The notes under the pieces were generated by a model. It did no database searches and was not told where the DNA came from. It saw only the letters and a program-made list of their open reading frames with translations. A stretch of 64,000 nucleotides of DNA, the filler included, from Collodictyon triciliatum (taxonomy: Eukaryota): assembly GCA_043381765.1 (NCBI GenBank). It is 25 parts of 25 records of this genome, joined end to end, with 100 filler letters (N's around TTAATTAATTAA, not from the genome) between each part and the next. Parts side by side here need not be neighbours in the genome. Positions count along the whole stretch, not along the records: positions 27,111 to 29,485 come from JBHJMP010009006.1; 24 more parts are not named here. One strand, 5' to 3'. The position numbers and the translations under genes are program-made. Shown here in pieces: positions 27,738 to 29,460 of the stretch (positions are counted from its first letter, which is position 1; each line of letters opens with the position of its first letter).

Positions 27738-29460
27738 ATGAAGAAAAGAAAACTCCTTGAGTTTGACAATATAAAGTCTGTAAAACCAAGCTATCGTAAT
27801 CTGAAAACATCTCTAAAGTCGATTGTAAAGAATGCAGATGACTATGACAAATCAACGATACGGTTTTATTGTGTCATAATTTGGTTACCGACACTTATTT
27901 GTTTGTAAGATGTTTCATATTGAAATCACAACTCCCAACAATCGATGAAAAGTTTTTTTGGACGCTTTAAAGACTGTCGGAATAGTTTCACAAGATATAC
28001 CCGCAAGTTTTAAAAAACCAGATATGAGAGATGACATGATGACTTTTTTATATCTATGATTTTCGATTCCTTTAATCCCGAGAAGAACGATTTCTGTTGG
28101 TTGGACTGTCTCATGTATTACCGTACTTGGTGAAGCAAATGTCAACAGCTTATCATAATAACATTAAGGAGCATGTCTTAAAGGGGTTATTGCGCTTTAT
28201 AAATCAAATGGTACCTAAATATGATATTATTATGGAACCTACTAAAAAGGCAGAGTTACGAAAGTTAAAAAAAAAGTCATCTTCAAAGAACTCGAAATAC
28301 CGGAACAATATAAAGAATGGGCTAAAATGCATTTGCATCATATCATTCCTAGCGATATTGTAAATGGTATCGAATATGTCGTCAAAGTTAACCCAAATAA
28401 GTACATTCCGTGTCTGATTTACATGAATCGCATTTTTGAGGAAATAGGAACAAAAAAGTTTCAACCAATCCCTGTAAGAACTAACAATACACCATGTCAT
28501 ATTACTCTAGATACTGCATGTTTAATATATATATATTAGTATTATTTGAAAAAACATCATTAATGAAGAATATATCAGGATGCAAAGAGACACTATGGGA
28601 TGAGTTCTTTGAAATGAAGAAGAGGGTCTTTCGTCAAACAGATTACAATTTTAAATACATGATACAAACAGACGGCTAAGCGGTGTCATTATTGTTTGAA
28701 AAGAATGGTTTTTCAAATTCAAAATCCAAATATAACCAAAACAAAGAATATGTCCATATACATGACCTTTCCGAATAGTAGCTATCTTTATTAGCTAAAA
28801 AAAAAAATAGTTAGAGTGGATGCAGGCAACTTTAATTTGGTTTACATGGTAGATGAGACGGGTAAGAAATTACGTTACACTGCACACCAAACAAGACATG
28901 ATAGCAAATCTCTTAAAAATCACCATATACTCTTGCGCGATAAAGAAAAGTACAATTCTTCAGGGAATGCATGGCAACAGGTTTACAAAGTGTTGTTTCT
29001 TTTGGTCGCATGTCTTTTGAAGAAAATCAGTGGTTTGAGAGATTAAGAGTATCCTTAATGGATTTAGAGACAAAACCGAGTGAACATAATTCATGCGCGG
29101 TCGATTATGAATAATTTCGAAAATATGTACCTATGAAATCAAGTTGCCAGATGGAATTATCTAGATTTTATGAACACGTTACTTTTCGAAAGATGAGATG
29201 GAGACAGTATGCTAATACAAAAAGAAGTGAACTATTGTTTATGGACCGAATCGAAAAGACATTTGGCAAGGATGTTGTACTGGCGTATGGAGACTGGAGA
29301 AGAAAATGTCAGATGAAGCATTTTATGCCAACAATCAGAAGAGGATTACGAAAAATACTATCCAAACGGTTTGAAACAGTTAGTGTAGATGAATTTAGAA
29401 CTCTAAGATGAGTTGTAGCTGCGAAAAAGGACTGGAATATATAATACTGAAAGGAAATAC
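27738..29460 (+). pseudogene. Fanzor1 (eukaryotic TnpB-family RNA-guided nuclease) gene, frameshifted, truncated at contig end
   Basis: Joined frames: MKKRK..KTSLKSIVK..DTYLFVR..LPTIDEKFF..TAYHNNIKEH..LLRFINQ..YIPCLIYMN..KFQPIPVRTNNTPCHITLDT..FKYMIQTDG*AVSLLF. RuvC-I IVRVDAG (~28807), FRKMRWRQY..KRSE..IEKTFGKDVVLAYGDW..MKHFMPT..GLRKIL..VDEFRT(S)KMSCSC (RuvC-II E plus first Zn-finger pair, ~29385-29422). Confidence 0.88.

What the first reader, a model, noticed from the sequence alone, without database searches (positions are those of the whole stretch)
27738..29460. Fanzor1-type RNA-guided nuclease gene (eukaryotic TnpB) hidden across frameshifts
Seen: six short ORF fragments join into one ~540-aa reading path, with motifs in order KTSLKSIV, TAYHNNIKEH, FQPIPVRT, MIQTDG-AVSLLF, VRVDAG, FRKMRW..Y, FGKDVVLAYGDW, MPT..GLR, VDEFRT(S)K..CxC. 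It starts with a basic NLS-like MKKRK. Established: this motif order (RuvC-I D, GDW, rearranged catalytic E just before the Zn finger) is characteristic of Fanzor1, omega-RNA-guided DNA nucleases carried by eukaryotic transposons and giant viruses. Inference: this protist hosts its own Fanzor transposon family. This copy is dead (stops at ~28678, ~28777, ~29112 and several frameshifts). The contig ends before RuvC-III and the omega-RNA/right end, so the guide cannot be seen here.
Basis: partly seen in the sequence, partly recalled or inferred. Interest (0 to 1): 0.85.

Follow-up and report, generated by a model that had tools for sequence, protein, structure and literature searches.

The report
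Dead Fanzor1 nuclease gene copies

Summary
Window 27738-29467 (+) is collinear with residues 1-580 of an intact 648-aa homologue, P0002. Identity is 333 of 571 aligned residues. The reading path is broken by 8 frameshifts and 5 in-frame stops.

The window is a chain of about 25 small contigs. This contig (27111-29485) ends in an A run before the second Cys pair and RuvC-III.

P0002 matches three solved Fanzor1 proteins at E 2e-28 to 4e-23. Its predicted fold matches them at TM 0.64-0.80. The window's own 98-aa fragment has the same three chains as its top hits.

The RuvC-I Asp, the Gly of "YGDW" and the relocated Glu are still encoded. Pro365, Lys367, Arg388 and Glu391 are changed.

A second dead partial copy lies at 59255-59771 (-). 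It is 86% identical, and the differences are spread evenly over codon positions.

No guide RNA, right end or transposase can be seen in the window. Giant-virus relatives do carry a conserved, covarying 3' region.

Verdict: a decayed member of a known family, of low interest. The scan has already reported decayed Fanzor1 copies on other DNA.

The parts
27738..29467 (+). Fanzor1 pseudogene, copy 1. It covers residues 1-580 of a roughly 648-aa protein in nine frame pieces, with 8 frameshifts and 5 in-frame stops.
   Evidence: Frame-aware alignment to P0002; tblastn; PDB hit of its own fragment.
27709..27737 (+). Short 5' leader shared by the two window copies (27 of 29 bases identical). Likeness between the copies stops upstream of 27709.
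28819..28821 (+). GAT codon for the RuvC-I catalytic Asp (P0002 D364), in 'VRVDAGN'. The invariant Pro that follows is changed to Ala, and the nearly invariant Lys to Asn.
   Evidence: Sequence; alignment A2 invariant columns.
29289..29291 (+). GGA codon for the invariant Gly of 'LAYGDW' (P0002 G521). This is the position where canonical TnpB has the RuvC-II Glu.
   Evidence: The rearranged site is described in PMC10530073 (passages). The position-to-position equivalence with TnpB is recalled, not aligned here.
29391..29393 (+). GAA codon for the relocated catalytic Glu (P0002 E555), in 'VDEFRT' just before the zinc finger.
29403..29467 (+). Frameshift that removes the invariant Ser, followed by the first Cys pair of the zinc finger ('KMSCSC') and the last readable residues.
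28073..28075 (+). In-frame TAA, aligned to Leu in P0002. Every related contig in the four laid runs that covers 28075 reads G there, and nearly all read T at 28074, giving TTG.
28677..28679 (+). In-frame TAA inside 'MIQTDG*AVSLLF', aligned to Leu.
28776..28781 (+). Two in-frame TAG codons, aligned to Glu and Gln.
29112..29114 (+). In-frame TAA, aligned to Lys.
29459..29485 (+). A27 run at the contig end, growing out of the 'KK' codons. It is an assembly break, not a gene end. Many other contigs of the window also end in A or T runs.
59255..59771 (-). Fanzor1 pseudogene, copy 2. It covers residues 1-162 and runs off its contig end. It is 85.9% identical to copy 1 over 519 columns and has its own stops (59637-59635 and 59437-59435) and a frameshift.
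27111..27285 (+). Context only: the 3' tail of a non-LTR retrotransposon, with AATAAA and an A run. It is 96% identical to 23349-23183 (-), below an ORF with a zf-RVT match.

Best explanation
Window 27738-29467 is a neutrally decaying copy of a Fanzor1 gene. A second such fragment lies at 59255-59771 on the other strand. Fanzor1 is the eukaryotic and giant-virus branch of the TnpB family of transposon-borne, omega-RNA-guided DNA endonucleases.

By analogy with characterised Fanzor1 proteins, the intact form of about 648 aa would bind a guide RNA transcribed from the 3' end of its own gene and the element's right end. It would cut DNA next to a short adjacent motif using a RuvC site made of Asp (RuvC-I), a relocated Glu just before the zinc finger, and Asp (RuvC-III).

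Neither window copy can make that protein. Copy 1 has 8 frameshifts, 5 stops and changed invariant residues, and both copies are cut off by contig ends. What is shown: homology, fold class of the family, conservation of the catalytic residues, the breaks, and neutral divergence. What is inferred: RNA guidance, nuclear import through the basic N-terminus, and mobility of the parent element.
For: Identity with Fanzor1:
- the stretch is collinear with residues 1-580 of P0002, with 333 of 571 residues identical, 8 frameshifts and 5 stops.
- P0002 hits GtFz1, PpFz1 and SpuFz1 at E 2.1e-28, 2.7e-24 and 3.7e-23. The next hits have E above 0.3.
- the window fragment 29115-29411 has the same three chains as its three best hits, at E 3.2e-6 to 2.2e-3.
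- the P0002 model has pLDDT 83.3 and pTM 0.81. Its seven best PDB matches are all Fanzor1 (E 2e-27 to 1e-23, TM 0.64-0.80). Cas12, TnpB and Fanzor2 follow only from E 7e-6, at TM 0.34 or less.
- D364, G521, E555 and R603-D604 are invariant in 34 family members.
- the family has 3147 cluster representatives at E 1e-3 or better.

Decay:
- the window copy keeps 8 of 10 invariant columns and 25 of 28 nearly invariant columns that lie within the contig. It has P365A, K367N, R388T and E391D, and it loses S559 at a frameshift.
- the two window copies differ at 17, 25 and 20 sites in codon positions 1, 2 and 3 (62 of 473 sites, chi-square p 0.45). There is no third-position excess, so they drifted neutrally.
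- at three of the breaks most related contigs in other runs read the unbroken form. These are +A behind 27848 (depth 135.6 of 196.2 in X5), TAA to TTG at 28074-75, and +T behind 28966 (93.5 of 124.4 in X5).

Mechanism in relatives:
- 38 of the 79 IMG/VR loci were examined. 37 carry complete ORFs of 593-635 aa, and one (L019) runs off its locus. In 35 of the 38, likeness between loci ends at GGTGTA, 44-94 nt after the stop.
- a helix inside the ORF's 3' end has compensatory changes at 8 of 9 pairs. 98.3% of cells are paired, against 83.8% in shuffles (0 of 500 shuffles reach the observed value) and 29-42% when the partners are slid.

Literature: PMC10530073 (passages) for the relocated Glu and the NLS tests. 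PMC10432273 (passages) for Fanzor1 as an omega-RNA-guided endonuclease found in protists and giant viruses.
Against: - No Pfam family reaches its curated cut-off for the fragments or the homologues. The best is PF07282 (Cas12f1-like TNB) at 24.4 bits against a cut-off of 26.3.
- RuvC-III, the second Cys pair, the omega-RNA and both element ends cannot be seen in the window. The mechanism therefore rests wholly on relatives at 36-59% protein identity.
- Several frameshifts lie at homopolymer or AT runs, where assemblies err, so the number of true frameshifts could be somewhat lower than 8.
- No read data from the source assembly could be laid. The best run holds only 0.11 of the sampled words.
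Confidence: 0.93

Rival explanations
1. The gene is alive, and the frameshifts and stops are sequencing or assembly errors in a very fragmented, homopolymer-rich assembly.
For: Shifts near 27962, 28045, 28250, 28525 and 28797 lie in T, A or TA runs. The contigs are short and many end in homopolymers. Most related contigs in other runs read the unbroken form at three of the breaks.
Against: The five in-frame stops are base substitutions, not length errors. Residues that are invariant or nearly invariant in the family are replaced (P365A, K367N, R388T, E391D). Copy 2 has different stops and shifts of its own. The two copies differ evenly over codon positions. The contigs come from other samples and are 85-99% alike, so they are other copies, not this locus.
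Confidence: 0.03
2. The frame is read through by the organism, by a variant genetic code with reassigned TAA/TAG, by programmed frameshifting, or by RNA editing.
For: Some protists reassign TAA/TAG (general knowledge). All five stops here are TAA or TAG.
Against: The stops align to Leu, Leu, Glu, Gln and Lys, so there is no single meaning. The eight shifts go in both directions. Other ORFs in the window are long and closed under the standard stops, for example the 667-aa ORF at 25055-27058. Related copies lack the defects at DNA level.
Confidence: 0.01
3. The copies are not a transposon family of the host. They are remnants of an integrated giant-virus genome that carried Fanzor1 elements.
For: Giant-virus contigs are rich in close relatives: 309 of 350 pattern matches in IMG/VR encode one, many on GVMAG contigs. 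In the tree the window copy and P0002 sit in an 11-row clade (SH-aLRT 97) with 4 IMG/VR rows. Bao & Jurka describe virus-integrated Fanzor elements in an algal genome (PMC3627910, passages).
Against: A non-LTR retrotransposon tail lies about 430 nt upstream on the same contig. The two copies have unrelated 5' flanks. Runs X5 and X7 hold 462 and 485 related contigs at 85-99% likeness, as expected of a dispersed high-copy repeat. No viral hallmark gene was seen, though the contigs are too short to exclude one. This rival also does not change what the gene is.
Confidence: 0.1

Closest known systems
Fanzor1 of Guillardia theta (GtFz1, PDB 9cer), Spizellomyces punctatus (SpuFz1, 8gkh) and Parasitella parasitica (PpFz1, 9cf0)
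   Same: Homologous along the whole length and the same fold. They share the same conserved Asp, Gly-Asp-Trp, Glu-x-x-Thr-Ser-x-x-Cys and Arg-Asp constellation. They also share a basic N-terminus.
   Different: Sequence identity in the structure-based alignment is only about 18-20%. The window copies are broken and truncated. No omega-RNA, TAM or cleavage can be assessed for this family.
Fanzor1 genes on giant-virus (IMG/VR, GVMAG) contigs, and the mariner/Tc1-type Fanzor1 elements of large DNA viruses and protists (PGv-1, PUl-1; Bao & Jurka 2013, PMC3627910)
   Same: These are the nearest labelled relatives: 36-47% identity to P0002 over the full length, in the same 97-supported clade. They have the same basic N-terminus. 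One close relative (L002) sits beside a DDE_3 transposase ORF, as in the published mariner-type elements (passages).
   Different: The viral genes are intact, and in the viral loci likeness ends at a sharp right end in GGTGTA. That 3' model finds nothing in the window (best E 0.17). No DDE transposase is present in the window. Whether the window family is mariner-type is unknown.
Bacterial TnpB (IS200/IS605, IS607) and Cas12f
   Same: The same RuvC and zinc-ribbon core. There are weak PF07282 matches and weaker structural matches (ranks 8-50).
   Different: Far more distant (TM 0.34 or less). The canonical RuvC-II Glu is replaced by Gly, and a Glu 34 residues downstream is invariant instead (PMC10530073).

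Membership tests
Fanzor1 (eukaryotic/viral TnpB homologue) | Significant full-length sequence homology to characterised Fanzor1 proteins | tested here: met
   P0002 against PDB: GtFz1 2.1e-28, PpFz1 2.7e-24, SpuFz1 3.7e-23. Window fragment 29115-29411: the same three chains are its best hits, at E 3.2e-6 to 2.2e-3.
Fanzor1 (eukaryotic/viral TnpB homologue) | Fanzor1 fold (REC-like N-terminal half, WED, split RuvC, zinc ribbon) | tested here: met
   This was tested on the intact homologue P0002, not on the window copy. The AlphaFold2 model has pLDDT 83.3. The seven best Foldseek PDB matches are all Fanzor1, at TM 0.64-0.80.
Fanzor1 (eukaryotic/viral TnpB homologue) | RuvC-I catalytic Asp | tested here: met
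   The GAT codon at 28819-28821 aligns to invariant D364. The neighbouring invariant Pro is lost.
Fanzor1 (eukaryotic/viral TnpB homologue) | Rearranged RuvC-II: canonical Glu lost, alternative conserved Glu next to [TS][TS]xxC | tested here: met
   Gly 29289-91 in 'YGDW' and Glu 29391-93 in 'VDEFRT' correspond to G521 and E555, which are invariant in 34 sequences. The feature is described in PMC10530073, and the conserved G and E of Fanzor1 are noted in PMC3627910.
Fanzor1 (eukaryotic/viral TnpB homologue) | C4 zinc finger between RuvC-II and RuvC-III | tested here: inconclusive
   The window keeps only the first Cys pair ('SCSC', 29405-29467) behind a frameshift, and the contig ends before the second pair. 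C565, C587 and C590 are at least 90% conserved in the homologues. PF07282 is matched only below its cut-off.
Fanzor1 (eukaryotic/viral TnpB homologue) | RuvC-III 'RD' motif | not testable with these tools
   It lies beyond the contig end at 29485, and there is no C-terminal fragment elsewhere in the window. R603-D604 are invariant in all 34 aligned homologues.
Fanzor1 (eukaryotic/viral TnpB homologue) | Omega-RNA encoded at the ORF 3' end and the right end of the element | not testable with these tools
   The region is absent from the window. A pattern search gave 2 hits against 1.63 expected by chance, and the covariance model of the viral 3' region gave a best E of 0.17. In 35 of 38 viral relatives examined, likeness between loci stops at the same GGTGTA motif 44-94 nt after the stop. 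On the 27 distinct sequences of A4, a helix in the ORF 3' end covaries.
Fanzor1 (eukaryotic/viral TnpB homologue) | Carried by a transposon (TIRs or TSDs, or an adjacent transposase) | tested here: inconclusive
   Two copies have unrelated 5' flanks, with likeness starting at 27709. Many related contigs occur in other runs. No ends, TSD or transposase could be defined.

The most novel reading that the evidence does not exclude
The two fossils would belong to a still-active, very high-copy Fanzor1 family of a freshwater protist lineage. The family would have been recently exchanged with giant viruses. Its members would be transcribed with a spliced 5' leader, the 172-nt GT..AG joint 27530->27703 seen in two runs. 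If so, intact copies elsewhere in the genome would offer a new, compact, naturally nuclear RNA-guided nuclease with an as yet unseen omega-RNA.
Probability: 0.25. Interest if true: 0.4.

Novelty: new member of a known kind. Interest (0 to 1): 0.2.

Why it matters
Fanzor1 nucleases are eukaryotic RNA-guided DNA cutters of current interest for genome editing, and each new host lineage adds to the picture of how they spread between protists and giant viruses. These two copies are dead and incomplete, so they add little on their own. They mark this genome, and the related organisms whose runs hold hundreds of similar contigs, as places to look for intact copies and their guide RNA. They also add one more case where the nearest relatives of a protist's Fanzor1 sit on giant-virus contigs.

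Tried and rejected
- Pfam on seven window fragments gave nothing meaningful.
- No whole genome is held for the window, so the copies could not be collected.
- blastn of 28795-29411 against the phage collection found no match.
- The look-up of sequencing runs found no good holder. The best share of sampled words was 0.11, and no RNA holder is listed.
- Read laying on X1, X3, X5 and X7 used contigs only and returned related copies, not this locus. X5 and X7 are only guessed to be RNA, so the GT..AG joint is a hint, not a shown intron.
- The metagenome scan with P0002 gave one distant locus (L001, 21% identity), which was not examined further.
- The search for the viral right-end motif in the window gave 2 hits at 3 mismatches against 1.63 expected.
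- The covariance model R1 of the viral 3' region gave a best E of 0.17 on the window.
- tblastn of the DDE_3 transposase of L002 and of the P0002 C-terminus against the window found nothing.
- Two further hairpins visible by eye in the viral 3' regions were not counted, because alignment A4 puts them in different registers.
- PF26935.1 is listed as a precomputed domain of five homologues. It did not appear in the Pfam library searched, so I cannot say what it is.
- Alternative genetic code, and live gene with errors: considered and rejected (see the rival explanations).
- Supplementary tables of the Fanzor papers were not opened. They may already list this family or its host.

Full report
WHAT THE WINDOW IS

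The 64-kb window is not one piece of DNA. It is about 25 contigs of 2.3-4.7 kb, sorted by length and joined by N-TTAATTAATTAA-N linkers, with G+C from 0.30 to 0.52. The finding lies on the contig 27111-29485. No whole genome is held for the window.

THE OBSERVATION

A search with the 98-aa fragment 29115-29411 found seven longer relatives. One of them is an intact 648-aa protein, P0002, which begins MKKRKR...KTSLKSII like the window copy.

tblastn of P0002 on the window gave pieces in all three forward frames between 27738 and 29467, with E down to 3e-67. A frame-aware dynamic-programming alignment joins these pieces into one collinear path:
- It covers residues 1-580 of 648, with 333 of 571 aligned residues identical.
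- It has eight frameshifts, near 27852, 27962, 28045, 28250, 28525, 28797, 28969 and 29403.
- It has five in-frame stops: TAA 28073-75, TAA 28677-79, TAG TAG 28776-81 and TAA 29112-14.
- It has no intron-sized insertion.

The path stops at an A27 run that grows out of two Lys codons and ends the contig. Many other contigs of the window also end in A or T runs, so this is an assembly break.

WHAT IT IS

Sequence evidence:
- P0002 matches three solved Fanzor1 proteins: Guillardia theta at E 2.1e-28, Parasitella parasitica at 2.7e-24 and Spizellomyces punctatus at 3.7e-23. Nothing else scores below E 0.3.
- The window's own unbroken fragment 29115-29411 has the same three chains as its three best hits, at E 3.2e-6, 8.1e-4 and 2.2e-3.

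Structure evidence:
- An AlphaFold2 model of P0002, built from a 34-sequence alignment, has mean pLDDT 83.3 and pTM 0.81.
- Its seven best Foldseek matches in the PDB are all Fanzor1 entries, with E 2e-27 to 1e-23 and TM 0.64-0.80.
- Cas12 variants, TnpB and Fanzor2 follow only from E 7e-6, at TM 0.34 or less.

Pfam is not decisive. The best match is PF07282 (Cas12f1-like TNB zinc ribbon), which stays below its cut-off at 24.4 against 26.3 bits.

The family is large, with 3147 cluster representatives at E 1e-3 or better and 537 at 1e-30 or better.

CATALYTIC RESIDUES

In the 34-sequence alignment the invariant columns include D364 (VGVDPGK), G521 (YGDW), E555 and S559 (NEFRTSK), and R603, D604, N606 and N610 (TRDxNxxxN).

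This matches two published descriptions:
- Bao & Jurka define Fanzor/TnpB by D-X(125,275)-[TS]-[TS]-X-X-[C4 zinc finger]-X(5,50)-RD, with an extra conserved G and E in Fanzor1 (PMC3627910, passages).
- Jiang et al. describe the rearranged site, in which the canonical RuvC-II Glu is lost and an alternative Glu about 45 residues away is conserved (PMC10530073, passages). Here the spacing is 34 residues.

The window copy still encodes the Asp (28819-21), the Gly (29289-91) and the Glu (29391-93).

IS IT DEAD?

The evidence that it is dead:
- Of the invariant columns that lie within the contig, 8 of 10 are kept. P365 is changed to Ala, and S559 is lost at a frameshift.
- Of the nearly invariant columns within the contig, 25 of 28 are kept. 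The changes are K367N, R388T and E391D.
- The stops align to Leu, Leu, Glu, Gln and Lys. Each is one base away from a sense codon and they share no single meaning, which argues against a reassigned code.
- A second copy at 59255-59771 (-) covers residues 1-162 and runs off its contig. It has its own stops and a frameshift.
- The two copies are 85.9% identical over 519 columns. They differ at 17, 25 and 20 sites in codon positions 1, 2 and 3 (62 of 473 sites, p 0.45). There is no third-position excess, so they diverged without selection on the protein.
- Contigs of four public runs were laid on the stretch. Two small runs of one study (X5 and X7, coded organisms) hold 462 and 485 contigs that are 85-99% alike, which points to a high-copy family. 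Most of these contigs read the unbroken form at three of the window's breaks: +A behind 27848, TAA to TTG at 28074-75, and +T behind 28966.

These contigs are other copies from other samples, not this locus. They show that the defects are private to this copy. They do not show that the assembly is correct. Some shifts lie in homopolymers, so I leave 3% for a live gene spoiled by assembly errors.

SURROUNDINGS

Likeness between the two window copies starts at 27709, 29 nt before the ATG, and their upstream flanks are unrelated.

In runs X5 and X7, however, contigs run colinearly from about 27359 into the ORF. Several contigs join 27529/27530, 27558, 27602 or 27623 directly to 27702/27703. One of these joints skips 172 nt with GT..AG ends. 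This recurrent boundary at 27702-27709 could be a leader intron, a deletion hot spot, or the true left end. I could not decide between these.

27111-27277 is 96% identical to 23349-23183 (-), the tail of an ORF with a zf-RVT match. It is followed by AATAAA and an A run, so it is the 3' end of a non-LTR retrotransposon. This marks the contig as eukaryotic nuclear DNA.

The window holds no transposase like that of L002 and no C-terminal Fanzor fragment.

RELATIVES AND MECHANISM

A scan of IMG/VR with the family alignment found 309 stretches encoding relatives among 350 pattern matches. The tool kept 79 loci, many of them on giant-virus MAG contigs. I examined 38 of the 79.

- 37 of the 38 carry complete, intron-free ORFs of 593-635 aa, and one (L019) runs off its locus. 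All 38 have basic N-termini.
- In 35 of the 38 there is a GGTGTA 44-94 nt after the stop. Of the other three, one locus ends too early and two carry variants. In the aligned loci, likeness between loci ends abruptly at this GGTGTA.
- The last roughly 70 nt of the ORF are more conserved than coding alone explains.
- They contain a helix in which 8 of 9 pairs show compensatory changes. 98.3% of cells are paired, against 83.8% in shuffles (0 of 500 shuffles reach this) and 29-42% when the partners are slid.

This is what an omega-RNA scaffold overlapping the ORF end looks like. Saito et al. report such an overlap for GtFz1 and show that Fanzor1 is an omega-RNA-guided endonuclease found in protists and giant viruses (PMC10432273, passages).

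One close relative, L002, has a DDE_3 (Tc1/mariner-type) transposase ORF beside it, at E 1.3e-13. This fits the published mariner-type Fanzor1 elements.

In a quick maximum-likelihood tree of 43 rows, the window read-through (X at each break) is sister to P0002 (SH-aLRT 100). Both sit in an 11-row clade (97) with four IMG/VR rows. The rooting is midpoint only, so no direction of transfer is claimed.

The viral 3' model and the right-end motif find nothing in the window.

VERDICT

The object is a pair of decayed fragments of a Fanzor1 gene family, and the nearest labelled relatives are on giant-virus contigs.

Fanzor1 in protists and giant viruses, its rearranged RuvC site, its basic N-terminal signals and its decay into pseudogenes are all already described. 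The scan itself has reported decayed Fanzor1 copies on other DNA.

This is a new member of a known kind, dead and incomplete, and its interest is low. The open points are whether intact copies exist in this genome, what the element's ends and guide look like, and what the 27702-27709 boundary means.

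Noticed in passing
window 1-64000: The window is a chain of about 25 contigs of 2.3-4.7 kb, sorted by length and joined by N-TTAATTAATTAA-N linkers. G+C ranges from 0.30 to 0.52, so neighbouring 'genes' across linkers are not neighbours in the genome, and the assembly may mix sources.
   Followed up: partly
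window 27111-27285 and 23183-24267: This is the 3' tail of a non-LTR retrotransposon. 27111-27277 is 96% identical to 23349-23183 (-), below a 327-aa ORF with a zf-RVT match, and is followed by AATAAA and an A run. It is several times deeper than the Fanzor part in runs X5 and X7.
   Followed up: partly
window 27529-27709: This is a recurrent boundary. Contigs of runs X5 and X7 join 27529/27530, 27558, 27602 or 27623 to 27702/27703, one of them with GT..AG ends and 172 nt skipped. Window copy 2 loses likeness to copy 1 at 27709. It could be a leader intron, a deletion hot spot or an element end.
   Followed up: partly
L002-L040 (38 of 79 IMG/VR loci), 3' flanks: In 35 of the 38 giant-virus Fanzor1 loci examined, likeness between loci ends at GGTGTA, 44-94 nt after the stop. 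A helix with 8 of 9 compensated pairs lies inside the ORF's 3' end. Two more hairpins with apparent compensation are visible by eye but were not counted.
   Followed up: partly
L024 4648-4938 and the same position in many loci (L010-L036): A small ORF of 96 aa in L024, Lys/Glu-rich and with no Pfam match, ends about 60 nt upstream of the Fanzor1 ATG. The sequence around its end (...GAGAATATTTAGGAATAA) recurs upstream of most of the related viral loci printed, although their downstream flanks are unrelated. It may be part of the mobile unit.
   Followed up: no
L002 3638-4678 (-): A 346-aa ORF with HTH_28 and DDE_3 (Tc1/mariner-type transposase, E 1.3e-13) lies about 320 nt upstream of the closest viral Fanzor1 gene, on the opposite strand.
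   Followed up: partly
window 58823-58894 (+): A tRNA gene, 60.1 bits. It is the only Rfam match at gathering score in the whole window.
   Followed up: no
proteins P0002-P0005, P0007: The protein database lists a precomputed Pfam domain PF26935.1 for five homologues. That accession did not appear in the Pfam library searched here, so its meaning is unknown to me.
   Followed up: no
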